Shown: piece by piece, positions 32,110 to 51,822 of the stretch
Layout: every line of letters starts with the position of its first letter
How positions within the stretch are numbered: the first letter of the stretch is position 1
Assembly (NCBI GenBank): GCA_003576795.1
Contig: QEVN01000001.1
Coordinates: forward strand, 1-52,821
DNA: 52,821 nucleotides
Source of the DNA: Burkholderiales bacterium
GTDB taxonomy: Bacteria > Pseudomonadota > Gammaproteobacteria > Burkholderiales > Burkholderiaceae_E
Direction: 5' to 3'
The notes under the pieces: model-generated
What the model was told of the DNA's origin: nothing
The model's database searches: none
The model's input: only the letters and a program-made list of their open reading frames with translations
Made by a program: the position numbers and the translations under genes

Positions 32110-32153
32110 TTGCCGATTTCGGCTAACGCACCGGCGAAGCCGTCTCCTAGAAT
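32110..32153 (+). promoter_or_regulatory. Putative activator site and -10 element of the aau operon
   Basis: TTGCCGATTTCGGCTAA (GCCGA-TT-TCGGC palindrome) at 32110-32126; TAGAAT at 32148-32153; related CCGATTTTCG at ~32066; GAGGAG RBS before ATG 32200. Confidence 0.45.
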
Positions 32154-35093: not shown

Positions 35094-36458
35094 ATGAAGG
35101 CCAAGACCAAGCTTTGCGCGGCGCTCGCGCTCGCGTTCGCCTGCGGCGCCGCCGCGGCGGCCGTTCCGGAGGCCGAGGCCGCGCGCCTGGGCAAGGACCT
35201 CACGCCGATGGGCGCCGAGAAGGCCGGCAACAAGGACGGCACGATTCCCGCGTGGACCGGCGGCATCACGAAGGCGCCCGCCGGCTGGAAGCTGTCCGAC
35301 CCGCGCGTCGATCCGTACAAGGACGACAAGGTTCTCTTCTCGATCGACGCGTCGAACGTCGACAAGTACAAGGACAAGCTCTCCGAGGGCCAGCAGACGC
35401 TGATCCGCACGCTGCCCGGCTACCGGATGGACGTCTATCCCACGCACCGCTCCTGCGGCTACTCCGACAGCGTCTACCAGCGCAGCGCGGAGAACGCGCG
35501 CGTGGCGAAGCTGGTCGACGGCGGCTGGCAGCTCGAGAACGCGGTCGGCGGCGGCGTGCTGTTCCCGATTCCGAAGAACGGCGCCGAGGCGGTGTGGAAC
35601 CACAAGCTGCGCATCCAGAGCGAGGGGCGCATCGAGCACTACTCGACGCTGTTCTCGTCCAAGAGCGGCGACTTCTCCCAGCTCGCGCAGAACCAGTGGG
35701 TCGTCTATCCGCTGCACGAGCAGTCGACGAAGAGCTTCGACGACGTGAAGAAGTCGGAGGCGAAGATCCTCAACGAGGTGGTCAGCCCGGCGGCGCGCGC
35801 CGGCGAGATGATCCTCGTGCACTGGTTCATGGATCGCGGCTCGGACGCCTGGCTGTATTTCCCCGGCCAGCGCCGCGTGCGCCGCGCGCCGTCCTTCGCC
35901 TACGACAACCCGGTGCCCGGCTACGAGAACCTCGAGACGGTCGACCAGTACCCGATGTACGCCGGCGCGATGGACCGCTACGACTGGAAGCTCGTCGGCA
36001 AGAAGGAGATCTACGTTCCGTACAACAGCTGGAAGCTGATCGACAAGAGCCGCAAGTACAAGGACATCTACCTGCCCGACTACGTCAACCGCGACCTGAT
36101 GCGCTACGAGCTGCATCGCGTCTGGGTGGTGGAGGCGACGCTGAAGGAAGGCATGCGCCACATCTTCCCGCGCCGCGTGATGTTCATCGACGAGGACAGC
36201 TGGACGCTGCTGCTCACCGACCTGTACGACGCGCAGGGCAAGGTCTGGCGCGTGCAGGAAGCCAGCCTCTGGGTCGCGCCCGAGATTCCCGCCTGCGTGA
36301 GCCAGGAGTTCGTCGGCTACGACCTGAACGTCGGCCGCTACATCGCCGAGACCGCGACGCAGGAGCACCCGCCCACCGACTGGCTCGCCGGTCGCGAAGG
36401 CCGCATCAACCCGAACATGTTCAGTCCGGACGAACTGCGCCGCCGCGGCGAGCGTTGA
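35094..36458 (+). CDS. DUF1329 periplasmic protein
   Basis: LGKDLTPMGAEKAGNKDGTIPAWTGG, YFPGQRRVRRAP, RYELHRVWVVEATLK, DEDSW. Confidence 0.92.
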   Translation: MKAKTKLCAALALAFACGAAAAAVPEAEAARLGKDLTPMGAEKAGNKDGTIPAWTGGITKAPAGWKLSDPRVDPYKDDKVLFSIDASNVDKYKDKLSEGQQTLIRTLPGYRMDVYPTHRSCGYSDSVYQRSAENARVAKLVDGGWQLENAVGGGVLFPIPKNGAEAVWNHKLRIQSEGRIEHYSTLFSSKSGDFSQLAQNQWVVYPLHEQSTKSFDDVKKSEAKILNEVVSPAARAGEMILVHWFMDRGSDAWLYFPGQRRVRRAPSFAYDNPVPGYENLETVDQYPMYAGAMDRYDWKLVGKKEIYVPYNSWKLIDKSRKYKDIYLPDYVNRDLMRYELHRVWVVEATLKEGMRHIFPRRVMFIDEDSWTLLLTDLYDAQGKVWRVQEASLWVAPEIPACVSQEFVGYDLNVGRYIAETATQEHPPTDWLAGREGRINPNMFSPDELRRRGER

Positions 36459-36545
36459 GCGCGAGCGACCGGACGGAACCTTCACGCGGATGACATCAAC
36501 GCCGGCAGCGCCGGCAGCAGAACGAAGAACGGGGAGAACGCTGCG

Positions 36546-38429
36546 ATGACGAAGAAGAACGCAGGAGCCGCGACGGCGCGGCCCGCAACCCCGAAGCGCG
36601 CCGCGCTTCGGCCGACGGCCTCCGCGCAGGCCGTGGCGGTCGCGCTCGCGGCGCTGGCCGCCGGCCTGGCCGGCACGCCGGCGCACGCCTTCAAGTTCCA
36701 GACCGACTCGGTGCAGGGCAGCTTCGACTCCACCGTCTCGTTCGGCTTCATCAAGCGGATGCAGAAGACCGACCGCAGCATCATCAGCAACGACAACGGC
36801 GGCGACGTCCCGACCACGAGCCAGCTCGAGAGCCGGATGCAGTCGTACTACGGCCCCGGCAGCGCGGTGGCCAATCCCGACTTCAATTACCTGCAGGCCG
36901 ACGACGGCAACCTGAATTACAAGAAGGGCGACATCGTCTCGGCGGCGCTCAAGGGCACGCACGAGCTCGTGCTGCACGGCCCGAACCACTGGAGCGGGAT
37001 GCTGCGCGCCACCTGGTTCAAGGACTGGCAGGTCGACGACACGGCCCGCATGCCGCTGGACCCGGCCGCGCGCTCGGCCGCGGTCGACAAGTTCACCTGG
37101 CTCGACGCGTGGGTGGCCAAGGAGTTCGAGATCGCCGGCCGGCCCGCCAAGGTGAAGTTCGGCAACCAGGTGATCAGCTGGGGCGAGGACATCTTCATCT
37201 ACGGCGGCGTCAACGTCACCAACGCGATCAACCTGCAGACCGCGCACACGCCCGGCATGCAGCTGAAGGAGATCTTCCGGCCGGCGCCGATGGTCTCGCT
37301 GAACGCGAACATCGCCGAAGGGCTGAGCGTCGAGGGCTACTACCAGTTCCGCTGGAACGCGTTCAAGTTCGATCCGGTCGGCACCTTCTTCTCGGTCACC
37401 GACGTCATCGGCAAGGGCGCGCGCAACGCGTTCATCAACTCGACCTCGCTGGGGCTGCCGCCGGGGACGGTCGGCGACATCGGGACGATCAATCCGCTCA
37501 CGGGCCAGCGCTTCACGCTGGACGAGCTGTCGGCCGGCACGGCCACGATTCCGCTCGCGGGCACCCCGCTGCCGTCGCTCGTCTACCCGATGGAGACGAA
37601 CGAGCCGAAGAACTCCGGCCAGTTCGGCCTGGCCACGCGCTGGCTGCCCGAGGGATCCGAGACAGAGTACGGGCTGTACTGGATCCGCTACCACGACAAG
37701 CTGCCCTTCGTCGGCTTCAACTTCGATCCCGCGGTGCACACGACGAACGTCGCCGCTCTCGGCTACTTCGTCGACTACGGCGAGAGCCGCAACGTGTTCG
37801 GCATCTCGGCGAACACGCGCCTGGGCGACTGGGCGGTCGGCATGGAGCTGTCGTACCGGCCGAAGGACAGCGTCGGCATCGACGCGACGGTGCCCGCCGT
37901 CGGCAAGTACTCGGTCTTCGAGTTCCCGGGCAAGACGGTGCGCGGCTTCGTCACCGAGAAGAAATGGCAGGCGCACCTCACCGGCTTCAAGCTGCTGTCT
38001 CCCGGCGACATGGGCGGCGTGATCGGCGGGATCGGCGCCGAGGAAGGCTATTTCCTCGGCGAGGTCGCGGTGGCGCACTACCCGAGCCTGGATCTCTCGG
38101 GCCGCATCCCCTACCTGCTCACCGACTACTCGCTGCCCGACAAGACGTCGGCGGGCCTGGTCTTCTCCACCGGCCTGACCTATGCCAACGTCGGCGACAG
38201 CGGCTGGAACGTGCTGCCGCAGCTCGACGTCGCCTGGGACTTCCACGGCACCTCGCCGAACGCGGTGCCGTTCATCGACGGTCGCAAGGCCGCGACGATC
38301 TCGCTGAACTTCAACCGCTCCGACAAGTGGAAGGCCGGCATCGGCTACACGCGCTATTGGGGCGGCGGCGGCAACAACCTGATGAAGGACCGCGACTTCC
38401 TGTCGCTGGTCACCTCGGTGTCGTTCTGA
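36546..38429 (+). CDS. DUF1302 outer-membrane beta-barrel protein
   Basis: Signal peptide; FDSTVSFG, DDGNLNY, GNQVISWGE, GQFG, DRDFLSLVTSVSF (C-terminal Phe). Confidence 0.9.
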   Translation: MTKKNAGAATARPATPKRAALRPTASAQAVAVALAALAAGLAGTPAHAFKFQTDSVQGSFDSTVSFGFIKRMQKTDRSIISNDNGGDVPTTSQLESRMQSYYGPGSAVANPDFNYLQADDGNLNYKKGDIVSAALKGTHELVLHGPNHWSGMLRATWFKDWQVDDTARMPLDPAARSAAVDKFTWLDAWVAKEFEIAGRPAKVKFGNQVISWGEDIFIYGGVNVTNAINLQTAHTPGMQLKEIFRPAPMVSLNANIAEGLSVEGYYQFRWNAFKFDPVGTFFSVTDVIGKGARNAFINSTSLGLPPGTVGDIGTINPLTGQRFTLDELSAGTATIPLAGTPLPSLVYPMETNEPKNSGQFGLATRWLPEGSETEYGLYWIRYHDKLPFVGFNFDPAVHTTNVAALGYFVDYGESRNVFGISANTRLGDWAVGMELSYRPKDSVGIDATVPAVGKYSVFEFPGKTVRGFVTEKKWQAHLTGFKLLSPGDMGGVIGGIGAEEGYFLGEVAVAHYPSLDLSGRIPYLLTDYSLPDKTSAGLVFSTGLTYANVGDSGWNVLPQLDVAWDFHGTSPNAVPFIDGRKAATISLNFNRSDKWKAGIGYTRYWGGGGNNLMKDRDFLSLVTSVSF

Positions 38430-38472
38430 TTCCCCCTGCCCGACCACAACTCCCGTCTCACGGTGGCACCCG

Positions 38473-40833
38473 ATGATCGCCCGCAGCGTAGAACGTCTCC
38501 AGCGCCTGCTGTTCGGTCATCGGGCGCTGGTGCTCGCGCTGCTGGCGGTCTTCACCGCCGTGATGGGCGTGTTCGCGAGCCGGCTGCACATGGACGCCGG
38601 CTTCGACAAGCAGCTGCCGCAGCACCACGAGTACATCCGCACCTTCTTCGAGTTCCGTGACGAGGTCTTCGGCGCGAACCGGATCATCGTCGTCGTGCGC
38701 GCGCGCGACGGCGAGATCTGGACGGCGCCCGGCCTGCGCAAGCTCTACGACGTCACGCAGTCGGTGATGTTCCTGCCGGGCATCGACCGGCGCACCGTCA
38801 CCTCGCTGTGGACGCCGAATACGCGCGTGCTCGGCGTCACCGAGGAAGGCTTCAAGGCCGAGGACGTCATCGGCGGCGACATCACGCCCGACCGCCTCGA
38901 CGACGGGCGCATCGAGCGCATCCGGCACAACGCGCTGGTCGGCGGCTACATCGGCACGCTGGTGTCCACCGACAACGCCGGCGCGATGGTCGTCGCCGAC
39001 CTGCTCGAGACCGACCGCGCCACCGGGAAGAAGCTCGACTACCTCGATTTCGCCTCGCGCATCGAGCAGGAAGTGCGCGGCCGGCACGAGGACGCCGGCT
39101 ACGAGATCCAGATCATCGGCTTCGCCAAGCAGGTCGGCGACATCGCCGACGGCGCGACCAGCGTCGTCCACTTCTTCGCGCTCGCCTTCGTGCTCACGGC
39201 GCTCTCGGTGTGGCTGTACTGCCGCTCGTGGCGCCTCACGCTGCTCACGCTCGGCTGCTCGCTCGTCTCGGTGGTCTGGCAGTTCGGCACGCTGCGTCTG
39301 CTCGGCTACGGACTCGACCCGCTCGCCGTGCTCGTGCCTTTCCTCGTGTTCGCGATCGGCGTCTCGCACGGCGTGCAGCAGATCAACTACATCGTCAAGG
39401 AAACCTGCGCCGGTGCCGACAGCGGCACCGCGGCGCGGCGCGCCTTCACCGGGCTGCTGATTCCCGGATCGATGGCGCTGGTCACCGCCTTCGTCGGCTT
39501 CGCCACGCTCACGCTGATCCCGATCCCGATGATCCGCGAGCTGGGCATCACGGCATCGATCGGCGTGGCCTACAAGATCGTCACCAACCTCGTGATGCTG
39601 CCGGTCTCCGCCTCGTACCTCGGCTTCGACGACGCGTACGTGACGCGGATGAAGCGGCTGCGCGCGCGCCGCGAGCAGGTCATGGCCTGGCTCGGCGGAA
39701 TCGCAAGCACGCGCAACGCCGTCATCGGCACGCTGGCCGGCGCGCTGCTGTTCGCCGTCGCCTTCCAGCAGAGCCAGCACCGGCACGTCGGCCACCTCGC
39801 CTCGGGCGCGCCCGAGCTGCGCGCCGACTCGCGCTTCAACCGCGACGCGGCGTCGATCGTCGCCAGCTTCGACCTGGGCCTGGACGTGCTCACCGTGGTC
39901 TTCGAGGCGCCGAAGGACGGCTGCTACCGGCAGCCGGTGATGGCCTACATCGACCAGTTCGCCTGGCAGATGCAGAACGCGCCGGGCGTCATCTCGGTGG
40001 CTTCGGTCGCCCAGCTCGCCAAGCAGGCCTACGCCGGCACGAACGAAGGCCACCCGAAGTGGACCGCGCTCGCCGCCGACGAGCGCTCGCTCGCCAATTC
40101 GGTGGGCCTCATCCCCGAAGGCACCGGGCTCTTCAACCCGGGCTGCACCGTGCTGCCGGTGAACGTCTTCCTCACCGACCACAAGGCCACCACCGTCAAG
40201 GACGTGATCGCCGAGGTGCGCGCATTCCGCGACGCCGAGCGGATGAGCGACGTGAAGCTGCGGCTGGCGAGCGGCAACGTCGGCGTGCAGGCGGCGACCA
40301 ACGAGGTGCTCGAGACCACCGAGCTGCCGATGATGCTGTACGTCTACCTGACGATCGTCGCGCTCGTGTTCTTCACCTACCGCGACTGGCGCGCGATGCT
40401 CGCCTGCTGCGTGCCGCTCACGCTCGCCACCTTCCTCGGCTACTGGTTCATGAAGGAACTCGACATCGGTCTCACGGTGGCCACGCTGCCGGTGATGGTG
40501 CTGGCGGTGGGCATCGGCGTCGACTACGCGTTCTACATCTACAACCGCCTGCAGCTGCACCTGGCGCAGGGCGCGAACATCGCGGTCGCGTTCCGCCAGG
40601 CGCTGATGGAAACCGGCAACGCGACGGTCTTCACCGCGATCACGCTGTCGGTGGGCGTTGCCACCTGGTCGTTCTCGGAGCTGAAGTTCCAGGCCGACAT
40701 GGGCATGCTGCTCACGTTCATGTTCATGGTGAACATGCTGATGGCGATCACGCTGCTGCCGGCGATCGCCGTCACGCTCGACGTGCTGATTCCGCGCCGC
40801 CGGCCGGTGCGCGCGCCCTTCCTCGTCCACTGA
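38473..40833 (+). CDS. RND/MMPL-family inner-membrane transporter
   Basis: DAGFDKQLP, FAIGVSHGVQ, LPVMVLAVGIGVDY, LKFQADMG; two-repeat architecture. Confidence 0.92.
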   Translation: MIARSVERLQRLLFGHRALVLALLAVFTAVMGVFASRLHMDAGFDKQLPQHHEYIRTFFEFRDEVFGANRIIVVVRARDGEIWTAPGLRKLYDVTQSVMFLPGIDRRTVTSLWTPNTRVLGVTEEGFKAEDVIGGDITPDRLDDGRIERIRHNALVGGYIGTLVSTDNAGAMVVADLLETDRATGKKLDYLDFASRIEQEVRGRHEDAGYEIQIIGFAKQVGDIADGATSVVHFFALAFVLTALSVWLYCRSWRLTLLTLGCSLVSVVWQFGTLRLLGYGLDPLAVLVPFLVFAIGVSHGVQQINYIVKETCAGADSGTAARRAFTGLLIPGSMALVTAFVGFATLTLIPIPMIRELGITASIGVAYKIVTNLVMLPVSASYLGFDDAYVTRMKRLRARREQVMAWLGGIASTRNAVIGTLAGALLFAVAFQQSQHRHVGHLASGAPELRADSRFNRDAASIVASFDLGLDVLTVVFEAPKDGCYRQPVMAYIDQFAWQMQNAPGVISVASVAQLAKQAYAGTNEGHPKWTALAADERSLANSVGLIPEGTGLFNPGCTVLPVNVFLTDHKATTVKDVIAEVRAFRDAERMSDVKLRLASGNVGVQAATNEVLETTELPMMLYVYLTIVALVFFTYRDWRAMLACCVPLTLATFLGYWFMKELDIGLTVATLPVMVLAVGIGVDYAFYIYNRLQLHLAQGANIAVAFRQALMETGNATVFTAITLSVGVATWSFSELKFQADMGMLLTFMFMVNMLMAITLLPAIAVTLDVLIPRRRPVRAPFLVH

Positions 40834-40846
40834 AGCGCGAGTCATC

Positions 40847-41332
40847 GTGTTCGATAGCCTGATCCGCCGACTGTCGCTCGAGCCCGCCGCGCCGCCCGTC
40901 GCGCAGGCGGCGTTCGAGCGCCGCCAGCTCGCCGTCGCGGCGCTCCTCGTCGAGGCCGCGCACATCGACCGCCACGCCGGGCCCGACGAGCGCGGCGCGG
41001 TCGCGCGGCTGCTGCGCGGGCACTTCGGCCTGTCCGAACGCGACGCGCAAAGGCTCGTCGAAGAGGCCGAAGAGCGCTACGCGACGAGCCTCGACGACTG
41101 GATCTTCGCGCGCGCGGTGCGCGACGGCTTCGATCCCGCCGAACGCGTCGAGGTGCTGCGCATGCTGTGGGAGGTCGTCTACAGCGACGGCCGGCTCGCC
41201 GCCTTCGAGCTGGATCTGCTGCAGCGTCTCTGCGCCGCGCTGGGCATCGACGACGAAGCCGCCGAGGGTGCCCGCGTCCTCGCCTTCGCCAGCGCGAATC
41301 CGCACGATCCCGAGCAGGCGGGCGAGACATGA
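40847..41332 (+). CDS. TerB-family protein
   Basis: AALLVEAAHID....DER, LWEVVYSDG....E; GTG start. Confidence 0.82.
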   Translation: MFDSLIRRLSLEPAAPPVAQAAFERRQLAVAALLVEAAHIDRHAGPDERGAVARLLRGHFGLSERDAQRLVEEAEERYATSLDDWIFARAVRDGFDPAERVEVLRMLWEVVYSDGRLAAFELDLLQRLCAALGIDDEAAEGARVLAFASANPHDPEQAGET

Positions 41333-41388
41333 AGCGGCGCCTCCTTCGGATCGCCGCGATGAAGCGACCCCTCCTTCGCATCGCCGCG
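41329..41388 (+). repeat. 30-bp tandem duplication of the first 10 codons
   Basis: ATGAAGCGGCGCCTCCTTCGGATCGCCGCG / ATGAAGCGACCCCTCCTTCGCATCGCCGCG (3 mismatches). Confidence 0.85.
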
Positions 41389-42390
41389 GCGCTGTGCGCG
41401 GCGCAGCTTCTCGCCGCCTCGGGTATCGCCGGCGACGATCCTGCCGACGGCGCGGCCCGGGCGGCCACCGCCGCGGATACGGCCGCAGGTACGGCCGCGA
41501 AAGCCGAATCGGCGAGCGCGGGCCAGCCGACCGCCGTGCAGGCGCAGAAGGTGCGGCATCCCGAACACGCGCCGCTGCTCGCCGCGGCGCGCGCCGGCGG
41601 GCGACTCGTCGTCGTCGGCGACTTCGGAACGATCCTGCTGTCCGACGACGACGGGAAAGGCTGGCGCCAGGCGCAATCGGTGCCCACGCGCGCGACGCTC
41701 ACCGCGGTCGAGTTCGTCGACGAACGGCACGGCTGGGCCGTCGGCCACGGGGGCGTCATCCTCTCCACCGACGACGGCGGCGAGCACTGGAGCCTGCGCC
41801 ACGAGGCCGGCAGCGACGTCGCATTGTTCTCGGTGCACTTCGGCGACCTGCGGCGCGGCCTCGTCGTCGGCTCCTTCGGCTTCGCCTCGCGCACCGACGA
41901 CGGCGGCGCCACCTGGCACCGCGTGCAGCTCGGCGACCAGGACGTGCACCTGTACCAGATCTTCTCCGATTCGCGCGGCGCCACCTGGATCGCCGCCGAG
42001 ATGGGCACCGTGTACCGCTCGGACGACGGCGAACGCTTCGAGCGCGTCGAGGTGCCGTACAGCGGCTCGCTGTGGGGCGGCATGGCGACGCCGGACGGAT
42101 CGATCCTGCTGTGGGGCATGGGCGGCACGCTGCTGCGCAGCCCCGACGGCGGACGCTCGTGGCGCCCGACGTCCACCGACACGCAGAATCCGATCACCGC
42201 CGGCTGCCGCCTGCCCGACGGCCGGCTCGTCTTCGTCGGGCTCGGCGGCACCGTGCTGGCGAGCAGCGACGGCGGCGCCACCGTGAGCACCGAGATCCGT
42301 CCCACCCGGCACGCCTACACCGCGGCGATCCTCGCGCGCGGCAAGCCGTTGCTGTTCAGCCTGGCCGGCGTCGAACCACCGCAGCCCTGA
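41329..42390 (+). CDS. YCF48/BNR-repeat beta-propeller protein
   Basis: Repeated S/T-DDGG..W Asp-boxes, GWAVGHGG.IL; start 41329 or 41359. Confidence 0.9.
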   Translation: MKRRLLRIAAMKRPLLRIAAALCAAQLLAASGIAGDDPADGAARAATAADTAAGTAAKAESASAGQPTAVQAQKVRHPEHAPLLAAARAGGRLVVVGDFGTILLSDDDGKGWRQAQSVPTRATLTAVEFVDERHGWAVGHGGVILSTDDGGEHWSLRHEAGSDVALFSVHFGDLRRGLVVGSFGFASRTDDGGATWHRVQLGDQDVHLYQIFSDSRGATWIAAEMGTVYRSDDGERFERVEVPYSGSLWGGMATPDGSILLWGMGGTLLRSPDGGRSWRPTSTDTQNPITAGCRLPDGRLVFVGLGGTVLASSDGGATVSTEIRPTRHAYTAAILARGKPLLFSLAGVEPPQP

Positions 42391-42452: not shown

Positions 42453-43940
42453 ATGAACATGAACACCGCCCGCCCCGAACTCGCCGCGATCCGCCGCAAG
42501 ATGTTCGTCGGCGGCCAATGGGTCGAAGCCCGCTCGGGCAAGACGCTGCCCGTCTACGATCCGGCCACGGGCGAGGAGATCGCCCGCGTGCCCGATGCGC
42601 AGGCCGAGGACGTCGACGCCGCCGTGCGCTCGGCGCGCGCGACCTTCGAGTCTTCCGCCTGGCAGGACATGCTGCCGGCGCAGCGCGAGCTGCTGATGCT
42701 GCGGCTGGCCGACCTGGTCGAGAAACACGGCGAGGAGCTGGCGCGCCTCGAGACGCTGAACAACGGCAAGCTGCTGATGTTCTCGCGCATGCTCGAGGTC
42801 GGCGCGAACGCGCAGTGGATCCGCTACATGGCCGGCTGGGCCACGAAGATCGAAGGCTCGACGCTCGACGTCTCGATTCCGTTCCCGCCCGGAGTGAAGT
42901 ACACGGCGATGACGCGCCGCGAGGCGGTCGGCGTGGTCGGCGCGATCGTGCCGTGGAACTTCCCGCTGCTGATGGCCATGTGGAAGATCGCGCCGGCGCT
43001 CGCCTGCGGCTGCACGGTGGTGCTCAAGCCGGCGGAGGAGACGCCGCTCACCGCGCTGCGGCTGGCCGAGCTCGTGATGGAAGCGGGCTTCCCCGCCGGC
43101 ACGGTGAACGTCGTCACCGGCTACGGCGAAAGCGCGGGCGCCGCGCTGGTGAAGCATCCCGGCATCGACAAGATCACGTTCACCGGTTCCACCGAGGTCG
43201 GCAAGACGATCGGCCGCAACTGCATGGACGAGATGAAGCGGGTCACGCTCGAGCTGGGCGGCAAGAGCCCGGTGATCGTGCTCGAAGACTGCGATCCCAA
43301 CACCGCGATCGCCGGCGCGGCGGGCGCGATCTTCTTCAACCACGGGCAGGTGTGCACGGCCGGCTCGCGGCTCTTCGTGCACAAGAGCCGCTACGACGAA
43401 GTGGTCGGGGGCCTCGCCGCCGCGGCGAACGCGACGAAGCTCGGCGGCGGCTTCGACGAAACCGCGCAGATGGGGCCGATGGTCTCGGCGCATCACCGCG
43501 ACCGCGTAGTCCGCTACATCGAGAGCGGCAAGAGCGAGGGAGCCGAGTGCCTGGCCGGCGGAGGCGCCGCGCCGGGCGCGGGCTACTTCGTCAAGCCCAC
43601 GGTGTTCTCCAACCCCAGCGGCAAGGAGCTGACGATCTCGCGCGAGGAGATCTTCGGGCCGGTCGTGGTCGCCTCGCCCTACAGCGACCTCGACGAGGTC
43701 GCGCGCCAGGCGAACGACTCGCGCTACGGGCTCGGGGCGAGCATCTGGACGAACGACCTCACGAAGGCGTACCGGCTGATCCCGAAGATCAAGGCGGGCA
43801 CCGTCTGGCTCAATTGCCACAACATGGTCGACCCGAACCTGCCTTTCGGCGGCTACAAGGAGTCGGGCACCGGACGCGAGCACGGCCGCGCGATGATCGA
43901 CGCGTACACCGAGACGAAGTCGGTGTGCGTGGCGTACTGA
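42453..43940 (+). CDS. NAD-dependent aldehyde dehydrogenase, phenylacetaldehyde dehydrogenase (FeaB)-like
   Basis: PWNFPL, FTGSTEVG, LELGGKSP, GQVCTAGSR, EEIFGPV; TKIEGSTLDVSIPFPPG segment resembles FeaB. Confidence 0.88.
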   Translation: MNMNTARPELAAIRRKMFVGGQWVEARSGKTLPVYDPATGEEIARVPDAQAEDVDAAVRSARATFESSAWQDMLPAQRELLMLRLADLVEKHGEELARLETLNNGKLLMFSRMLEVGANAQWIRYMAGWATKIEGSTLDVSIPFPPGVKYTAMTRREAVGVVGAIVPWNFPLLMAMWKIAPALACGCTVVLKPAEETPLTALRLAELVMEAGFPAGTVNVVTGYGESAGAALVKHPGIDKITFTGSTEVGKTIGRNCMDEMKRVTLELGGKSPVIVLEDCDPNTAIAGAAGAIFFNHGQVCTAGSRLFVHKSRYDEVVGGLAAAANATKLGGGFDETAQMGPMVSAHHRDRVVRYIESGKSEGAECLAGGGAAPGAGYFVKPTVFSNPSGKELTISREEIFGPVVVASPYSDLDEVARQANDSRYGLGASIWTNDLTKAYRLIPKIKAGTVWLNCHNMVDPNLPFGGYKESGTGREHGRAMIDAYTETKSVCVAY

Positions 43941-43965: not shown

Positions 43966-46089
43966 ATGACCCCTGCCCTGTTCGCGATCGGCATCGCCTT
44001 CGCAGGCGCGTACGGATCGGCCCTGGCCGCACCGAAGGCGCCGGCCGACGTCGACGGCGCGCGCATCGTCGCCGCCGATCGCGAACCGGGCAACTGGATG
44101 AGTCATGGCCGTACCTACGACGAGCAGCGCTTTTCGCCGCTCGCGCGCATCCACGACGGCAACGTCGGCAAGCTCGGCCTCGCCTGGACGCACAAGCTCG
44201 ACGTCGACCGCGGCGTCGAGTCGACGGCGATCGTCGTCGACGGGGTGATGTACACCACCGGCGCGCACAGCATCGTCTACGCGCTCGATGCGCGCAACGG
44301 AAAGCTGCTGTGGCGCTACGACCCGCAGGTGCCGGGCGAGAACCTGGGCCAGGGCTGCTGCGACGCGGTGAATCGCGGCGTCGCCGTCTGGAAAGGCAAG
44401 GTCTACGTCGGCACCTTCGACGGGCGCCTGGTGGCGCTCGATGCGCGCGACGGCAAGCCGGTATGGACCGTCGACACCGTCGTCGACCGCGCGAAGAGCT
44501 ACACGATCACCGGCGCGCCGCGCATCGTCAAGGGCAAGGTGCTGATCGGAAACGGCGGCGCCGAGTTCGGCGTGCGCGGCTACGTCACCGCGTACGACGC
44601 CGAGACCGGCAGGCAGGCCTGGCGCTTCTACACCGTGCCCGGCGACCCGAAGCTGCCGCCCGAAGACAAGGCGATGGAGATGGCGCTGAAGACCTGGCAC
44701 GGTCGCGGCTGGCTCGACTGGGGCGGCGGCGGCACCGTCTGGGACTCCATGGCCTACGACCCCGAGCTGAACCTGCTGTACATCGGCACCGGCAACGGCT
44801 CGCCGTGGAACCACAAGTTCCGCAGCGACGGCAAGGGCGACAACCTGTTCCTGTCGTCGATCGTCGCGCTGAATGCCGACACCGGCGAGTACGTGTGGCA
44901 CTACCAGACCACGCCGGCCGACCAGTGGGACTACACCGCCACGCAGCACATCGTGCTGGCCGACATCCGCATCGACGGCCAGGTGCGCAAGGTGCTGATG
45001 CAGGCGCCGAAGAACGGCTTCTTCTACGTGCTCGACCGCACCGACGGCAAGCTGCTGTCGGCGAAGAACTTCGTGCCGATCAACTGGGCGACGCACGTCG
45101 ACCCCGCCACCGGCCGTCCGGTCGTCACCCCCGACAGCGACTATCTCGCCGGGCCGAAGGTCATCGTCCCCAGCTTTCTCGGCGCGCACAACTGGCAGCC
45201 GATGTCGTTCAACCCGAAGACCGGCTACGTCTACCTGCCGGCGCAGGAGAGCGTCGCCGGACTGCAGGCGCAGGAAAAGCCGCTGTTCATTCCGCACAAG
45301 GCCGTGGTGAACCTCGGCGTCGAGGTGCCCGACCTGCCCGAGGATCCGAAGGTCGAAGCGCAGATCCGCAGCGCCTGGAAGGGCCGCCTCATCGCGTGGG
45401 ATCCGGTCCGGCAGCAGGCGGCGTGGACGCAGGAATACGTCGCGCCGTGGAACGGCGGCACGCTGAGCACCGCCGGCAACCTCGTGTTCCAGGGAACCGC
45501 CGACGGCCGCGCCGTGGCCTATGCGGCCGACAGCGGGAAGAAGCTGTGGGAAGCGCGCGTGAACTCCGGCTCGATGGCCGGGCCGGTCACCTACGAGGTC
45601 GACGGCGAGCAGTACGTCACGTTCATGGCCGGCTGGGGCGGCGCGTTCCCGCTCGTCACCGGGCCGCTGTCGCTGTCGGCGCGCGTGCAGCCGGAGGCGC
45701 GCGTGGTCACGTTCAAGCTCGGCGCCAGGGGCAAGCTGCCGCCGGCGAAGAAGGCCGTCGTTGCGCTGCCGCCGCTGCAGAAGGTGACGGCGAGCGCCGC
45801 CGACCTCGCCACCGCGCGCACGATGTTCAACGGCTTCTGCGGGTCGTGCCACGGCCTGAACGCCGTGAGCGGCGGCGTGCTGCCCGATCTGCGCTACCTG
45901 ACTCCGGCGAAGCACGAGCAGTACGTTGCCGTGTTGAGCGGCGCGAAGCTGAACCGCGGCATGCCGAGCTTCGCATCGGTGCTCGCGCCGAAGGACATGG
46001 AGCTGATCCGCCAGTACATCGTCAAGCGCGCGCACGACCTGAAGACGCAACTGGAGCTGATTCCGGTCGGAACGGCGCCGGCTCGATGA
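43966..46089 (+). CDS. Quinohemoprotein (PQQ/heme c) alcohol dehydrogenase, type II, probably Ca2+-dependent
   Basis: Signal peptide; GCCDAVNRG vicinal Cys, GNGGAEFGVRG, WDYTA, APKNGFFYVLDR; C-terminal CGSCH. Confidence 0.94.
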   Translation: MTPALFAIGIAFAGAYGSALAAPKAPADVDGARIVAADREPGNWMSHGRTYDEQRFSPLARIHDGNVGKLGLAWTHKLDVDRGVESTAIVVDGVMYTTGAHSIVYALDARNGKLLWRYDPQVPGENLGQGCCDAVNRGVAVWKGKVYVGTFDGRLVALDARDGKPVWTVDTVVDRAKSYTITGAPRIVKGKVLIGNGGAEFGVRGYVTAYDAETGRQAWRFYTVPGDPKLPPEDKAMEMALKTWHGRGWLDWGGGGTVWDSMAYDPELNLLYIGTGNGSPWNHKFRSDGKGDNLFLSSIVALNADTGEYVWHYQTTPADQWDYTATQHIVLADIRIDGQVRKVLMQAPKNGFFYVLDRTDGKLLSAKNFVPINWATHVDPATGRPVVTPDSDYLAGPKVIVPSFLGAHNWQPMSFNPKTGYVYLPAQESVAGLQAQEKPLFIPHKAVVNLGVEVPDLPEDPKVEAQIRSAWKGRLIAWDPVRQQAAWTQEYVAPWNGGTLSTAGNLVFQGTADGRAVAYAADSGKKLWEARVNSGSMAGPVTYEVDGEQYVTFMAGWGGAFPLVTGPLSLSARVQPEARVVTFKLGARGKLPPAKKAVVALPPLQKVTASAADLATARTMFNGFCGSCHGLNAVSGGVLPDLRYLTPAKHEQYVAVLSGAKLNRGMPSFASVLAPKDMELIRQYIVKRAHDLKTQLELIPVGTAPAR

Positions 46090-46481
46090 GGCCACGCGTG
46101 ATGCGCGGTGCGGCGCTCGGCAGGGCGATCGCCGCCGCGTGCGCCGCGGCGCTCGGCGTCGCCGGCGCGGTCGCGGGCCCGTCCACTGCGCAGCCGCGCA
46201 CGACGGGATCGTCCGCGGCGACGCTGTACGCGCTGAACTGCATGGGGTGCCATCCGTCGCCGAAGACGAGCGAGCACGACGCGGGTCCGCTGCGCGGCGA
46301 GTTCTTCCACAACGACAAGGGCCGCAACTTCTTCATCCGGATGCCGGACGGGAGCAGGCGCCTGTCGGCGTCGGAGGAAGCGCGGCTGCTCGAGGAAGTG
46401 CTCACGTGGAAGCGCGCCTGCGCGGCGATCCGGCAGGATGCGCCGATGGTCGACTACCGCGGCGAACACTTCGTTCGCTGA
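46086..46481 (+). CDS. Small monoheme c-type cytochrome
   Basis: Signal peptide, LYALNCMGCH; ATGA overlap with the ADH gene. Confidence 0.78.
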   Translation: MRPRVMRGAALGRAIAAACAAALGVAGAVAGPSTAQPRTTGSSAATLYALNCMGCHPSPKTSEHDAGPLRGEFFHNDKGRNFFIRMPDGSRRLSASEEARLLEEVLTWKRACAAIRQDAPMVDYRGEHFVR

Positions 46482-46484: not shown

Positions 46485-47609
46485 GTGCCGGAACCGAAGC
46501 CCGTCGCGCGAGGGGGTCGCAGGAAGCTGCGCGCGAGCGTTGGAGCGGCGCTCCTCGCCGCGCTGTGCGCGAGCGGCGCGGCGACCTCGGCGTCGTCGCC
46601 CGCACCGTCCCCGGCGGCTTCCCCCGCCCCGCGGGTCGCGGAACGCATCGCGCTCGGTCGCGAGCTGTTCTTCGAATCGCGCCTCTCGGGCGACGGCAGC
46701 CGCAGCTGCGCGAGCTGTCACGCGCCGGACAAGGGCTACGCCGACGGCGAGGCGCTCTCGCGCGGCTACAACCATGCCGGGCACTTCCGCAACACGCCTT
46801 CGCTGATCGCGCTGGCCGCGAAGCCACGCCTGATGTGGGACGGCCGCTATCCGGCGGAGCGGCTGGCCGACGTCGTCGTCGACATGATCCGGTCGCCGGT
46901 GACGATGAACGGCGATCTGCAGATCGTCGTCGAGCGCGTGCGGCAGCTCCCGTCGCTGCTGCAGGCGTGGCAACGCGCATACGGAGCGCGCGAAGCGCCG
47001 AGCATCGACGGGCTGGTGGACGCGCTCGCCGCGTACGCGAGCTCGCGCGGCAACGCGCAGACGCCGGTCGATCGCGCGCTGCATGGCGACGAACAGGCGC
47101 TGTCGGCAGCGGCGCTCGAAGGCATGCGCCTGTTCCAGGGCAAGGCGGGCTGCGCGCGCTGCCATTCGGGTGCCGCGTTCACCGACGGCGGCCTGCATCG
47201 CCTGGGCGTGCCCGAGAACCCCGAGATCCTGCGCGACCCGGAGCGAACGATCAGCCTGCTGCGCCATTACGCGGTGCACGGCGCGCGCGACCCGATGTCC
47301 GAACGCGCCGACACGGGCGCTGCGGCGTGGACGCAGCGCGCCGCGGACCGCGGCCGCTTCGCCACGCCCTCGCTGCGCGGCGTGGCGCTCACCGCGCCCT
47401 ACATGCACAACGGCGTCTTCGCGACGCTCGCGCAGGTCGTCGAGTTCTACGACCGCGGCGGCGGACGCGCGAGCGAACTGCAGCCGCTCGGGCTGGACGC
47501 GCGCGAGCGCGCGGCGCTCGTCGCCTTCCTCGAGGCGCTGTCGCCGCCGCTGCCGCCGGAGAGCGCTCCGCCGACGGACAACTACGCGACCACCGGAGCG
47601 GGCCGATGA
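46485..47609 (+). CDS. Diheme cytochrome c peroxidase/MauG-superfamily protein, paralogue 1
   Basis: LGRELFFESRLSGDG, CASCH, RNTPSL, MWDGR, CARCH, TPSLR..ALTAPYMHNG. Confidence 0.9.
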   Translation: MPEPKPVARGGRRKLRASVGAALLAALCASGAATSASSPAPSPAASPAPRVAERIALGRELFFESRLSGDGSRSCASCHAPDKGYADGEALSRGYNHAGHFRNTPSLIALAAKPRLMWDGRYPAERLADVVVDMIRSPVTMNGDLQIVVERVRQLPSLLQAWQRAYGAREAPSIDGLVDALAAYASSRGNAQTPVDRALHGDEQALSAAALEGMRLFQGKAGCARCHSGAAFTDGGLHRLGVPENPEILRDPERTISLLRHYAVHGARDPMSERADTGAAAWTQRAADRGRFATPSLRGVALTAPYMHNGVFATLAQVVEFYDRGGGRASELQPLGLDARERAALVAFLEALSPPLPPESAPPTDNYATTGAGR

Positions 47610-48946
47610 AGCGTCGCCGCTTCGCCGCGGCCGGCGCCGCGCTCGTCGTCGGCGCCGCGTCCGCGATCATCGGCGCGCTGGCGATCTCGGCCGTACTCGC
47701 ATCGGCGTTCCCCGGCGCGGCGGCTACCGGCGCAGCGGCTACCGACCCGGCCCCACCCAGCCGCGATCTTCCCCCTTCCCCCTCCCCCCTTCTCCCTTCT
47801 CTTCCCGCAAACCTGCCACCCCTCGCCCCGCTCCCCCCGGTGCCGATTCCCGCCGACAACCCGATGTCGGCGCAGAAGATCGAACTGGGCAAGCTGCTGT
47901 TCTTCGACGCGCGGCTGTCGGGCGACGCGTCGACCTCGTGCGCGTCCTGCCACGTCGCACAGCACGGCTGGGCGCACCACGAGCCGCTCGCGCCGGGCTA
48001 TCCGGGCCACCGGCTGTGGCGCAACAACCCGACCGTGCTCAACGCCGCGCACTTCCGGCGACTGATGTGGGACGGCACGATCGACCGCCTCGAAGTGCAG
48101 GCTCGCTCGGCGATGCAGGCGCCGGTCGAAGGCAACGGAAAAGCCGAGCTGGTCGAGATGCGGCTGCGGCTCGTGCCCGAATACGTCGATCGCTTCCGCG
48201 AGGTGTTCGGCACCGACTGGCCGCAGCTCGACGACGCCTGGCGCGCGATCGCGGCCTTCGAGCGAACGATCGTCTCCGACCCGCGTCGCGTGCCCTTCGA
48301 TCGCTTCGCCGCCGGCGACGCGAGCGCGATGACGCCGGCCGCGCAGCGCGGCCATGCGCTCTTCACCGGCAAGGCGCGCTGCATCGCCTGCCACAACGGG
48401 CCGCTGGCCAGCGACCAGCAGTACCACGCGCTCGGCGTTCCGCGCCAGACGCTGTTCGACTCGAGCCCGCTCGTGCAGGTCGCCGTGCGCTGGCAGAACG
48501 CGCAGCGCGACGCGCCGCGCGCGCTGTACCGCGACGCCGAGGAAGACCTCGGCCGCTGGTACCGCACGCGCGACCCCGCCGACATCGGGCGCTTTCGCAC
48601 GCCGTCGCTGCGCGAACTGCGCTACACGGCGCCCTACATGCACAACGGCGTCTTCGCGACGCTCGCCGAGGTGGTCGACTTCTTCGATCGCGGCGGCGGC
48701 GACGCGCCGAACAGGTCGCCGCTGCTGCAGCCGCTGGGCCTGAGCGCCGCGGAGAAGAGCGACCTCGTCGCCTTCCTCGAGGCGCTGAGCATGGAGGAGC
48801 CGCTCGTCGTCGCGACGCCGGCGCTGCCGCCGATGATGCCGCTGGTCGACACGGCGCAGGCGGCCTGCACGATCGAAGCGAGCCTGGCGAGCGAAGCGGG
48901 CGCGGCGAACCGAACGGGCGCGACGGGCGCAACGCGCGGGAGATGA
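47606..48946 (+). CDS. Diheme cytochrome c peroxidase/MauG-superfamily protein, paralogue 2
   Basis: PADNPM..K.ELGKLLFFDARLSGD, CASCH, RNNPT, MWDG, CIACH, FRTPSLREL.YTAPYMHNG. Confidence 0.9.
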   Translation: MKRRRFAAAGAALVVGAASAIIGALAISAVLASAFPGAAATGAAATDPAPPSRDLPPSPSPLLPSLPANLPPLAPLPPVPIPADNPMSAQKIELGKLLFFDARLSGDASTSCASCHVAQHGWAHHEPLAPGYPGHRLWRNNPTVLNAAHFRRLMWDGTIDRLEVQARSAMQAPVEGNGKAELVEMRLRLVPEYVDRFREVFGTDWPQLDDAWRAIAAFERTIVSDPRRVPFDRFAAGDASAMTPAAQRGHALFTGKARCIACHNGPLASDQQYHALGVPRQTLFDSSPLVQVAVRWQNAQRDAPRALYRDAEEDLGRWYRTRDPADIGRFRTPSLRELRYTAPYMHNGVFATLAEVVDFFDRGGGDAPNRSPLLQPLGLSAAEKSDLVAFLEALSMEEPLVVATPALPPMMPLVDTAQAACTIEASLASEAGAANRTGATGATRGR

Positions 48947-51276
48947 GCATGGGTCGCCTGTGGAACCGCTACGTGATGCACCGGCGACGCTGGTGGATCC
49001 CGCTCGCGGCGGTGCTCGCCATCGGCGTGCTGAGCATGCTGTACATGGGTGCGCGCACCTACGCCGACGCGCCGCCCGTGCCCGACTTCGTCGACGAGCG
49101 GGGAACGACGCAGGTGGCCGCCGACGCGATCCGGCGCGGACAGGCCGTGTTCCTGAAATACGGGCTGATGAACTACGGCAGCTTCTTCGGCGACGGCGCC
49201 GGCCGCGGCCCCGATTTCACCGCCGACGCGCTGCATCGCGTGGCGATCGCGATGCGCGACTGGCATGCATCGCGCGACGGCGTCGACGACGACTCGGCGC
49301 TCGCCGCCGCGCAGCGGGCGATCCGCCGCAACCGCTACGACGAATCGACGAACCTCGTGCGCATCGGCGAAGCGCAGGCCTATGCCGCGCGCGACCTCGA
49401 GCGGCAGGTCGCCGCGCGCTTTCGCGGCGAAGGCAACGAGCCCTTCCATCCGGCCGGCTGGATCTCCGACGAGGCCGAGTTGCGCGACCTCGCCGCGTTC
49501 TTCTTCTGGGGCGCGTGGGTATGCGGCGCCGAGCGCCCGGGCGAGCGCTACTCGTACACGCACAACTGGCCCTACGACGAGCTGGCGGGCAACCGTCCGA
49601 GCGCGCAGGTCGTGCTGTGGAGCGCCGTCGCCGTGCTCGCGCTCGTTGCCGCGCTGGGCGCGGTCCTGTTCGCGTACGGGCGCTATTCGAGGATCGCCGG
49701 CTGGCGCTCGTCGGAGCGGCAAGCGCAACCGGCGCAGGCGCAGCGACGGCGACGCATCGAATTCCCCGGCGAAGCGAGCGTGCACTCGCCGCTCGAAGCC
49801 GCGCCGTCGGCGCTGCAGCGCGCGACCTGGAAGTTCTTCGTCGTCGCCGCGGTGCTCTTCGTGCTGCAGATCGTCGCCGGCATCCTCACCGTGCACGACT
49901 TCCTCGGCGTCACGCGCGTGTTCGGCATCGATCTCGCCCAGACGCTGCCGATCCCGATCGTGCGCGGCTGGCACCTGCAACTCGCGCTGCTGTGGATCAC
50001 CGCGTGCTGGATCGGCTCGTCGATCTTCGTCATCTCCACCGCCAGCCCGCAGGCGATCGCCGGGCAGCGGCGCCTCGTCGATGCGATGTTCGTGCTGCTC
50101 GTCGTCACCGCGGCCGGCGGCCTGGCCGGCGTGGCCCTCGGCCCGCACGGCGTCCTCGGCGAGCACTGGCATTGGCTGGGCAGCCAGGGCTGGGAGTTCG
50201 TCGAGCAGGGGCGCCTGTGGCAGGCGATGCTCTTCGTCGTGATCGCGCTGTGGGCGGTCGTGCTCGCGCGCGCGGTCGTCCCGACCTGGCGCACGGGCGA
50301 TGCCTGGACGCTGCCCAAATGGCTCGTCTGGTGCGTCGCCTGCGTGCTGCTGCTGTTCCTTTCGGGCTTCGTCTCCGGGCCCGAGACGAACTTCGTCGTC
50401 GCCGACTTCTGGCGCTGGGCGGTGATCCACATGTGGGTCGAGGCCTTCTTCGAGGTGTTCGCCACCGCGCTGCTGGCCTACTGCATGGTGCTGATGCGGC
50501 TCGTGAGCCACGCGGCGGCCTCGCGCATCGTCTATCTGGCGACGCTGCTCTTCCTCGGCTCGGGGCTGCTCGGCATCTCGCACAACTTCTACTGGAACGC
50601 CAAGCCGGTGGTCACGCTGGCGATCGGCAGCGTCTTCTCGACGCTGCAGGTGGTGCCGCTGATCCTGCTCACGCTCGAGGCCTGGCAGTTCCGCAACGCG
50701 CCGCAGCGCGCCGGCGCCGCCTTCGCGCACGGCGAGGCCTTCGTCTTCCTGCTCGGCGTGAACTTCTGGAACTTCCTCGGCGCCGGAATGTTCGGCTTTC
50801 TCGTCAACCTGCCGATCGTCAACTACTACGAGCACGGCACCTATCTCACCGTGAACCACGGGCACGCCGCGCTGATGGGCGTCTACGGCAACCTCGCGAT
50901 CGCGATGATCGTGTTCTGCGCGCGCAGCCTCGTCGAGCCGGCGCACTGGAATGCGCGGCTGCTGCGCTGCGTCTTCTGGTCGATCAACGTCGGGCTGATG
51001 GGGATGGTCGTGCTCGACCTCTTCCCGGTGGGCGTCGCGCAGCTGATGGACGTGCTCGAGAATGGCCTGTGGCACGCGCGCTCGCAGGTCTTCGTGCAGG
51101 GAACGCTCTTCCAGGCGCTGACCTGGGCGCGCATCGTCGGCGGCGCGATCTTCGTGCTCGGCGGCGTGTTGCCGCTCGCGTGGTTCGTGCTGACGCGCTC
51201 GGCGTCGCTGAAAGCGGCGCAGCCCGAGCCTTCGCTGCCGCCGGCTACGCGATCAGTGCCCGAGCCTTCGCTTTGA
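48943..51276 (+). CDS. qNor-family heme-copper-oxidase-superfamily protein with NO dismutase (Nod)-like substitutions
   Basis: YGSFFGDGAGRGPDFTADALH, YTHNWPYD, RGWHLQ, HMWVEAFFEVF, GISHNFYW (HN in place of HH), STLQVVP (Q in place of E), NHGHAA; ATGA overlap with the upstream gene. Confidence 0.88.
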   Translation: MSMGRLWNRYVMHRRRWWIPLAAVLAIGVLSMLYMGARTYADAPPVPDFVDERGTTQVAADAIRRGQAVFLKYGLMNYGSFFGDGAGRGPDFTADALHRVAIAMRDWHASRDGVDDDSALAAAQRAIRRNRYDESTNLVRIGEAQAYAARDLERQVAARFRGEGNEPFHPAGWISDEAELRDLAAFFFWGAWVCGAERPGERYSYTHNWPYDELAGNRPSAQVVLWSAVAVLALVAALGAVLFAYGRYSRIAGWRSSERQAQPAQAQRRRRIEFPGEASVHSPLEAAPSALQRATWKFFVVAAVLFVLQIVAGILTVHDFLGVTRVFGIDLAQTLPIPIVRGWHLQLALLWITACWIGSSIFVISTASPQAIAGQRRLVDAMFVLLVVTAAGGLAGVALGPHGVLGEHWHWLGSQGWEFVEQGRLWQAMLFVVIALWAVVLARAVVPTWRTGDAWTLPKWLVWCVACVLLLFLSGFVSGPETNFVVADFWRWAVIHMWVEAFFEVFATALLAYCMVLMRLVSHAAASRIVYLATLLFLGSGLLGISHNFYWNAKPVVTLAIGSVFSTLQVVPLILLTLEAWQFRNAPQRAGAAFAHGEAFVFLLGVNFWNFLGAGMFGFLVNLPIVNYYEHGTYLTVNHGHAALMGVYGNLAIAMIVFCARSLVEPAHWNARLLRCVFWSINVGLMGMVVLDLFPVGVAQLMDVLENGLWHARSQVFVQGTLFQALTWARIVGGAIFVLGGVLPLAWFVLTRSASLKAAQPEPSLPPATRSVPEPSL

Positions 51277-51583: not shown

Positions 51584-51822
51584 GGGGCTTCACGCCCCAC
51601 GGGCCGCCCGAGATCGAATTCCGAATGCCGGTTCTCCGGCGTGATGCCGGCAACCAGTTCGTCGAGGTCGTACTCGGGGCGCTCGAGCGGCTCGATGACG
51701 ATCCTGCCGTCCTCCTCGCGAATATCGACGGCGTCGTCCACCTCGAGCTTCACGGCCTGCAGGATCGCCGACGGGATACGCACCGACGCGCTGTTTCCCC
51801 ATTTCCTGACGGTCGTGCGCAT
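51580..51822 (-). CDS. mazE: MazE/AbrB-type antitoxin
   Basis: VRKWGNSASVRIP, YDLDELVAGITPENRH.E; GTGA overlap with mazF. Confidence 0.95.
   Translation of the reverse strand: MRTTVRKWGNSASVRIPSAILQAVKLEVDDAVDIREEDGRIVIEPLERPEYDLDELVAGITPENRHSEFDLGRPVGREAP

What the first reader, a model, noticed from the sequence alone, without database searches (positions are those of the whole stretch)
48943..51276. qNor homologue with Nod-type active-site substitutions in a betaproteobacterium
Seen: the FeB ligand pair HH is HN (CAC AAC, 50581-50586); the conserved Glu of 'SALEVVP' is Gln (STLQVVP, 50647-50649); the quinol-site Asp of 'WLRxPGD' is Gly (WARIVGG, 51142-51144). The quinol-site His (TVHDF, 49894), heme ligands (WHLQ, HGH) and HMWVEAFFE are retained. 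Known (recalled Geobacillus qNor numbering): H560N and E581Q plus altered H328/D746 characterise putative NO dismutases of Methylomirabilis and strain HdN1 and a related 'unknown Nor' clade. Inference: not a canonical NO reductase. The EAFFE/NAKP variant looks more like the uncharacterised Nod-related clade, and this operon context is a rare functional clue for it.
Basis: partly seen in the sequence, partly recalled or inferred. Interest (0 to 1): 0.85.

Follow-up and report, generated by a model that had tools for sequence, protein, structure and literature searches.

The report
Nod-like enzyme swaps with iodate reductase
This gene encodes a relative of bacterial nitric-oxide reductase with the active-site changes of the proposed oxygen-making "NO dismutases"; it ends an amine-dehydrogenase operon at a position that another bacterium fills with iodate-reductase-like genes, so it likely supplies the oxidant for building that enzyme's cofactor when air is absent.

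Summary
The residue calls are correct and are not errors. H560N and E581Q occur in 120 of 120 top homologues and D746G in 119; His328 is kept. The protein lies outside canonical qNor (29-40% identity), in the HNFYWNAKP group beside the VTFE-type Nod clade (39-47%). This most likely corresponds to the published 'unknown Nor-related' or Planctomycetia-type Nod. It ends a TTQ aromatic-amine-dehydrogenase operon, coupled to two IdrP-type dihaem peroxidases. Three natural rearrangements point to function. Genome G629 has idrBA-like genes in the same slot. Hyphomicrobium carries a transferred copy behind a true MauG. G002 keeps only regulator, mauB promoter and this gene. Best reading (0.40, inferred): an anoxic oxidant source (O2 from NO) for TTQ maturation. 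Rivals are a cytochrome-fed NO reductase (0.25) and NO detoxification (0.2). No chemistry was tested. The scan found this operon before on other DNA (e1-2496820, e1-5263228, e1-5263225, e1-5263227); the IdrAB swap and the promoter retention are not in the lines I saw of those notes.

The parts
48943..51276 (+). Nod-like qNor homologue, 777 aa (NorB cyt-c-like domain + COX1 domain); start could be ATG 48943 or 48949
   Evidence: AlphaFold model pTM 0.86 matches qNor 3AYF, TM 0.86
50581..50586 (+). FeB ligand pair His-Asn (H559 kept, H560N)
50647..50649 (+). E581Q
51142..51144 (+). D746G, quinol site
49894..49896 (+). H328 kept, quinol site (E332 is Gly four codons on)
47606..48946 (+). Dihaem peroxidase P2, IdrP-type (56% to Azonexus Idr peroxidase 2); Phe at the MauG Tyr294 position; stop overlaps the nor start
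46485..47609 (+). Dihaem peroxidase P1, IdrP-type (42% to Azonexus Idr peroxidase 1); Tyr kept
46086..46481 (+). Small mono-haem cytochrome c (one CxxCH)
   Evidence: conserved in the operon
43966..46089 (+). Quinohaemoprotein (PQQ + cyt c) alcohol dehydrogenase; absent from this slot in the relatives read
42453..43940 (+). Phenylacetaldehyde dehydrogenase (StyD model, 885 bits, cut-off 850)
35094..42390 (+). DUF1329, DUF1302, MMPL/RND, TerB, YCF48-like envelope module
32200..35079 (+). TTQ amine dehydrogenase genes mauB, mauE, mauD, mauA (both subunits below the MADH cut-offs, so likely the aromatic-amine type)
32110..32153 (+). Conserved promoter-like motif TTGCCRAT..GGCTAAC-N20-CTAGAAT; one hit in the whole own genome
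30924..31856 (-). Divergent AraC-family regulator (best model EutR, below cut-off)

Best explanation
The gene encodes a member of the Nod-related branch of quinol NO reductases and is the last gene of an amine-dehydrogenase operon, where it likely turns NO into O2 (or peroxide) so that the neighbouring dihaem enzymes can build the TTQ cofactor during denitrifying growth. Shown: the substitutions, the clade, the operon and its rearrangements. From the literature: TTQ maturation is a six-electron oxidation by a MauG-family dihaem using H2O2. Inferred: that P1/P2 are the maturase; that the enzyme makes O2 or H2O2 from NO; that the product reaches the dihaems by diffusion. The job would be low-flux and biosynthetic, beside an ordinary NirS/NOR/NosZ chain.
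For: (1) Slot swap. G629 (98% complete) has the same operon from araC-mauBEDA to cytc-P1-P2, ending in idrB-idrA-like genes, and has no copy of this nor. Its P1 and P2 are each sister to the main nor-linked group, which includes the window's (FastTree 1.0). Its IdrA nests among betaproteobacterial IdrA (100/100). Idr is proposed to yield H2O2 (PMC8692401, passages). (2) Three Hyphomicrobium genomes carry a copy nested in a betaproteobacterial clade (100/100; AU p=0.0003 against excluding them). It is coupled to a different dihaem, a Paracoccus-type MauG (466 bits to 3L4M; 31-33% to P1/P2). In L063 mauF-like, mauB, E, D and A follow. Two of the three also show a Methylobacterium-type mauG in the mau operon. 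(3) In G002 the regulator and mauB-type promoter stand directly before nor alone, while its amine dehydrogenase and P1-P2 lie in another cluster. (4) In the genus, 21 of 35 genomes have the gene and all 21 have mauA; the 12 without mauA lack it. In its tree subclade 15 of 22 further genomes have mauA, against 13 of 399 class-wide. (5) 22 of 26 subclade genomes have nirS or nirK. Four close relatives have nirS and nosZ, two of them a cNor. (6) MauG chemistry: PMC11951088, passages.
Against: No Nod-family protein has been shown to dismutate NO in the papers read (PMC3413370 calls it speculation). None of the 13 class-wide mauA genomes has this clade, nor does G055, which has mauA and nirS. G002 and G028 keep mau with P1-P2 and no terminal partner. 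G460 keeps cytc-P1-P2-nor with no mauA found. 7 of 22 subclade genomes, 4 of 6 marine gammaproteobacterial and 20 of 20 other hosts had no mauA, so this cannot be the role of the whole clade. P1/P2 are not MauG orthologues (70 bits). P2 has Phe where MauG needs Tyr (PMC6405878). The IdrAB swap rests on one complete operon plus one truncated one, and it also fits an electron-sink role. Hosts have nosZ and the quinol His is kept. There is no exact FNR-like box in the window. Kin are not independent.
Confidence: 0.4

Rival explanations
1. A cytochrome-fed NO reductase: electrons from amine oxidation pass through the small cytochrome c and P1/P2 to this enzyme, which makes N2O; IdrAB plays the same terminal-acceptor part with iodate.
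For: The slot swap with a reductase. Degraded quinol site, D746G and E332G. The cytc-P1-P2-nor tail is the most fixed part of the operon and persists in G460 without mauA. nosZ is present.
Against: In Hyphomicrobium the partner is a true MauG, a maturase and not a respiratory carrier. The quinol-site changes are shared by the whole clade whatever its neighbours. Relatives already have other NO reductases. G002 keeps nor apart from P1-P2.
Confidence: 0.25
2. NO detoxification: the enzyme removes periplasmic NO to protect the haems of the dihaem maturase and the TTQ enzyme during denitrification.
For: Bacteroidota members sit by Rrf2 regulators and RIC/hemerythrin-type genes. Elbon et al. suggest nitrosative-stress roles. 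Fuchsman et al. favour NO reduction. Exact FNR/NnrR-like boxes lie before nor in 4 of 72 loci against 0.08 expected. That MauG haem binds NO is recalled.
Against: It does not explain why an iodate reductase fills the same slot, nor why a canonical qNor was never seen in this slot in the loci read. G006 and G027 carry a canonical qNor separately.
Confidence: 0.2
3. A microaerobic oxidase that reduces O2 only to H2O2 and so feeds the dihaems; NO is not the physiological substrate.
For: The FeB site is altered and the quinol His kept. It would supply the oxidant MauG is known to use and matches the proposed H2O2 by-product of Idr.
Against: Strong co-occurrence with NO-forming nitrite reductases and NO-stress neighbours elsewhere in the clade. 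No direct evidence.
Confidence: 0.08
4. Hitch-hiking: the gene entered the operon once and was inherited with it, with no functional tie to amine oxidation.
For: Most linked copies form one clade. Many members have unrelated neighbours.
Against: Re-association with a non-orthologous MauG after transfer. Retention under the mauB-type promoter in G002. Divergent pairing with mauBEDA in L089. The dehydrogenase genes of the operon come and go while nor stays.
Confidence: 0.07

Closest known systems
'Unknown Nor-related' / Planctomycetia-type Nod (Elbon et al., bioRxiv 10.1101/2023.11.21.568154; 'qNor-related' cluster in PMC10286720)
   Same: Hosts in Bacteroidota, Planctomycetota and Proteobacteria. 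About 40-47% identity to the other Nod clade, as reported for Planctomycetia-type against Alpha-type Nod.
   Different: Elbon reports no related neighbours for the Planctomycetia type. Here a subclade is tied to TTQ amine dehydrogenase genes and dihaem peroxidases. Their reference alignment was not seen.
Putative NO dismutase (Nod) of Ca. Methylomirabilis oxyfera and strain HdN1 (PMC3413370)
   Same: His-to-Asn at FeB, Glu-to-Gln, damaged quinol site, other histidines kept.
   Different: His328 kept. EAFFE/NAKP motifs instead of VTFE/IxKP. Only 39-47% identity to the VTFE clade. Hosts have nosZ. That the VTFE motif marks the Methylomirabilis type is recalled; two members carry the JGI name 'nitric oxide dismutase'.
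Canonical qNor (Geobacillus 3AYF; Cupriavidus necator pHG1 NorB)
   Same: Fold (TM 0.86), haem ligands, H508, E512, H559, E429.
   Different: H560, E581, D746, E332 and Y93 are changed; 29-40% identity; separate branch.
Iodate reductase cluster idrABP1P2 (PMC8692401, PMC11445184)
   Same: P1 and P2 fall inside the IdrP clades; in G629 idrBA-like genes still follow them.
   Different: In the window the Nod-like gene stands where idrBA would be, inside an amine dehydrogenase operon.
mau cluster with MauG (Paracoccus denitrificans)
   Same: mauB, E, D, A plus CCP_MauG-family dihaems.
   Different: Twin IdrP-type dihaems instead of MauG, no amicyanin gene seen, and an added haem-copper-family enzyme.

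Membership tests
canonical qNor | His sextet with three FeB histidines | tested here: not met
   H560 is Asn
canonical qNor | Quinol site H328/E332/D746 | tested here: not met
   H kept; E332 and D746 are Gly
canonical qNor | qNor fold with haem-less cyt-c-like domain | tested here: met
canonical qNor | NO to N2O with quinol | not testable with these tools
   needs an assay
Nod (putative NO dismutase, broad sense of PMC3413370) | FeB His to Asn and catalytic Glu to Gln | tested here: met
Nod (putative NO dismutase, broad sense of PMC3413370) | Quinol-binding residues lost | tested here: inconclusive
   D746 and E332 lost, H328 kept in 64 of 79 clade rows
Nod (putative NO dismutase, broad sense of PMC3413370) | One cluster apart from qNor | tested here: met
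   joint branch with the VTFE clade: FastTree 0.995, SH-aLRT 99 (with a long-branch warning)
Nod, narrow sense (VTFE-type clade) | Branches inside that clade; His328 replaced | tested here: not met
   outside the 19-row VTFE clade (support 1.0); His kept; no named Methylomirabilis or HdN1 row was available
Nod (either sense) | N2 + O2 from NO | not testable with these tools
   not shown for any purified member in the papers read
unknown Nor-related / Planctomycetia-type Nod | Groups with Bacteroidota and Planctomycetota sequences between Nod and qNor | tested here: inconclusive
   one clade in FastTree (0.974) but the Bacteroidota rows are unresolved in IQ-TREE; published reference sequences not available
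MauG (for P1/P2) | Orthology to Paracoccus or Methylobacterium MauG and Tyr ligand | tested here: not met
   TIGR03791 187 and 212 bits against cut-off 444; P2 has Phe
IdrP1/IdrP2 (for P1/P2) | Tandem dihaem pair inside the IdrP clades | tested here: met
IdrP1/IdrP2 (for P1/P2) | Adjacent idrAB | tested here: not met
   nor follows P2 in the window; met in G629

The most novel reading that the evidence does not exclude
Denitrifying proteobacteria use a Nod-family enzyme as a private oxygen or peroxide generator to finish an oxygen-containing protein cofactor (TTQ) in anoxia. The operon slot for this oxidant source was first held by an iodate reductase cassette, was then taken over by the Nod-like enzyme, and was rebuilt in Hyphomicrobium around a true MauG and a U32-like hydroxylase candidate. 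This would be a biosynthetic, non-respiratory use of NO dismutation.
Probability: 0.3. Interest if true: 0.9.

Novelty: new variant of a known kind. Interest (0 to 1): 0.62.

Why it matters
Whether Nod-type proteins make O2 from NO has been open since 2010-2012, and nod is used as a marker for oxygenic denitrification. A Nod-related gene with a defined regulator, inducible operon and a measurable product (TTQ, amine dehydrogenase activity) gives a genetic read-out that needs no methanotroph enrichment. The swap with IdrAB also bears on what IdrP1/P2 do, which PMC11445184 calls unclear. If the enzyme makes N2O instead, nod-like marker counts overstate oxygenic denitrification.

Tried and rejected
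Sequencing error: rejected. NCBIfam has no model for the protein. P1/P2 as true MauG: rejected. An idea that Phe in P2 marks nor-linked clusters: rejected, since G629 has Phe with idrBA. FNR or sigma-54 control of the window operon: no box found. Expression: contigs of four RNA-labelled runs cover parts of the operon and of nor, but no silent stretch was laid and contigs cannot show level, so this is not counted. Complex prediction of P1, P2 and the nor periplasmic domain was not available, so binding is untested. The first AU test was confounded by row L066 and was repeated without it. My first D746 column was one residue off; one search corrects it. Zhu 2017 (PMC5288823) and PMC2565495 are not held. 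Named Methylomirabilis Nod was not among the listed members of ten clusters. A U32-like gene was not found in the own genome.
Full report
Observation. Alignment with Geobacillus qNor 3AYF fixes the numbering: H560N, E581Q, D746G, H328 kept, and also E332G, Y93G and Q545A. N and Q are in 120 of 120 listed homologues (1281 passed the threshold, 120 were listed) and G734 in 119 of 120. In the tree set, N and Q are in 79 of 79 clade rows and 19 of 19 VTFE rows, while 17 of 17 qNor rows keep H, E and D. Position 734 is G in 69, A in 9 and a gap in 1 of the 79. Four DNA/WGS runs show no change at these codons. The model has the qNor fold.

Family. The tree had 115 rows: the window, 78 of the 80 loci (L077 and L108 dropped as short), 19 of the 120 VTFE-type proteins, and 17 qNor-type rows. 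The window's group and the VTFE clade share a branch apart from qNor (0.995; SH-aLRT 99, a quick tree with a long-branch warning). Identity is 39-47% to the VTFE clade and 29-40% to qNor. This matches the description of 'unknown Nor-related' and Planctomycetia-type Nod in Elbon et al., but I had no named reference row, and its monophyly with the Bacteroidota rows is unresolved in IQ-TREE.

Operon. The gene ends a same-strand run: mauB, mauE, mauD, mauA, DUF1329, DUF1302, MMPL, TerB, YCF48-like, phenylacetaldehyde dehydrogenase, quinohaemoprotein ADH, a small cytochrome c and two dihaems, with a divergent AraC regulator. The aldehyde dehydrogenase points to an aromatic amine substrate (inferred). 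Of 16 same-genus nor regions read, 14 have P1-P2-nor, one starts at a contig end and one is G002. In 12 the stretch reaches mauBEDA; 8 of these keep the aldehyde dehydrogenase and 0 the ADH. A dihaem stands directly before nor in 30 of 80 GTDB loci, including Rhodocyclaceae, Sulfuritalea, Polaromonas and Hyphomicrobium; about half of these 30 are close kin of the window.

Co-occurrence. In the genus, 21 of 35 genomes have the gene at 70% identity or more and all have mauA; 2 more have mauA only (70-71% complete); 12 have neither. mauA was found in 15 of 22 further genomes of the tree subclade, 2 of 6 marine gammaproteobacterial hosts and 0 of 20 others. Class-wide it was in 13 of 399, and none of 400 class genomes had this clade (at most two candidates scored per genome). 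Full-length nirS is in 20 of 26 subclade genomes (one with internal stops) and nirK in 2 more. The own genome (83% complete) has nosZ, cbb3 oxidase and a below-cut-off nirK-like gene; nirS and cNor were not found. Kin are not independent, so these are descriptions and not tests.

The dihaems. They are distant from Paracoccus MauG and closest to the peroxidase pair of the Azonexus hydrophilus NCP973 cluster, which precedes arsenite-oxidase-like genes. The search listing of PMC13455634 names that strain as an iodate reducer. P1 and P2 of amine dehydrogenase operons nest inside the IdrP clades. They are fused in G002 and L079 and are the only PF03150 hits in the own genome; G020 has one more Tyr-type dihaem elsewhere.

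Three rearrangements. (a) Of 400 order-level genomes, 4 had a close P2 match. G629 has the full operon ending in idrB-idrA-like genes (52% and 58% to Azonexus) and no copy of this nor. G677 has YCF48-cytc-P1-P2-idrB-idrA at a contig end, plus a second idr cluster, and no mauA was found. Their IdrA form a clade inside betaproteobacterial IdrA, G629 on a long branch. The simplest order, inferred, is that the operon took up an idr cassette and nor later replaced idrBA. (b) Hyphomicrobium copies (L059, L061, L063) sit inside a betaproteobacterial clade (groups were named after earlier trees were seen) and follow a Paracoccus-type MauG. In L063 the order is U32-like gene, mauG, nor, mauF-like, mauBEDA, with an exact FNR-like box upstream. 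(c) A motif noticed in five upstream regions occurs once in the own genome, before mauB in 15 other genomes, and before nor alone in G002. It was not found in G629. L089 has nor divergent from mauBEDA.

Mechanism. TTQ needs a six-electron oxidation by a dihaem with H2O2 as oxidant (PMC11951088). A denitrifier oxidising amines in anoxia lacks it. Both occupants of the slot are enzymes proposed to release reactive oxygen from an anoxic acceptor: IdrAB (H2O2) and Nod (O2). The link survived a change of dihaem partner, which favours a diffusible product over a fixed interface. I therefore put 0.40 on oxidant supply, 0.25 on a cytochrome-fed NO reductase, 0.20 on NO detoxification, 0.08 on an O2-to-H2O2 oxidase and 0.07 on hitch-hiking. 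Against it: most TTQ clusters lack the gene; G002 and G028 keep P1-P2 without a partner; G460 keeps the tail without mauA; P2 lacks the Tyr that MauG needs; and dismutation itself is unproven.

Literature seen. PMC3413370 (parts 2-3 of 5), PMC7338807 (part 1 of 2), bioRxiv 2023.11.21.568154 (passages, section 5). Passages only: PMC10286720, PMC6250046, PMC5723336, PMC8153729, PMC11951088, PMC8692401, PMC11445184, PMC6405878 and bioRxiv 2021.10.15.464467. Figures with the alignments and all supplements were not seen; Elbon's Nod alignment bears on the clade label. No held paper has both 'nitric oxide dismutase' and 'amine dehydrogenase'. The one listed paper with 'IdrA' and 'amine dehydrogenase' looks unrelated by its title. 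Searches listed nothing on this link. Most subscription journals are not searched.

Verdict. A real, correctly read member of a known but uncharacterised branch, in a context that makes its chemistry testable: new variant of a known kind, interest 0.62.

Noticed in passing
L063:7595-8587, L061:7703-8692, L181:1085-2068: A 330-aa protein resembling U32 peptidases by Atlas features and structure (no Pfam hit) stands next to mauG or the mau operon in three Hyphomicrobium genomes. U32 proteins include O2-independent hydroxylases (recalled), so it is a candidate for the first Trp hydroxylation of TTQ.
   Followed up: partly
G629:C34:170000-189200 (L290, L287): Amine dehydrogenase operon ending in an idrP1P2BA-like cassette with a fast-evolving IdrA; its substrate may not be iodate.
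   Followed up: partly
L099, L105, L108, L114: Clade members in Bacteroidota and Obscuribacterales lie next to tryptophanase or tyrosine phenol-lyase genes.
   Followed up: no
L087, L100, L103, L104, L111, L118: Planctomycetota-type members lie beside DUF1800 and DUF1501 genes.
   Followed up: no
L080:6264-9524: boxC and boxB (benzoyl-CoA epoxidase; O2-dependent, recalled) stand directly before a clade member.
   Followed up: no
L102, L119, L068, L071: Exact FNR/NnrR-like boxes within 350 nt before nor; in L119 the region is shared with divergent ubiU.
   Followed up: partly
window 49192-49206: D84 and R88 are present in all ungapped rows of both Nod-type clades where qNor has H/N and a hydrophobic residue around Tyr93; the haem-propionate Ca2+ site may be rebuilt.
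   Followed up: no
window 51245-51822 (-): mazEF-type toxin-antitoxin pair overlapping the nor stop; present in only some relatives.
   Followed up: no
window 43966-46089: The quinohaemoprotein ADH looks like a recent insertion: absent from this slot in 12 of 12 relatives read.
   Followed up: partly
G000:C133:638-1969 and G000:C179:4713-5951: Two unclassified haem-copper oxidase homologues in the own genome, one CcoN-like below cut-off.
   Followed up: partly
window 24809-30874 (-): Mrp/Pha Na+/H+ antiporter operon upstream of the regulator; ordinary.
   Followed up: no
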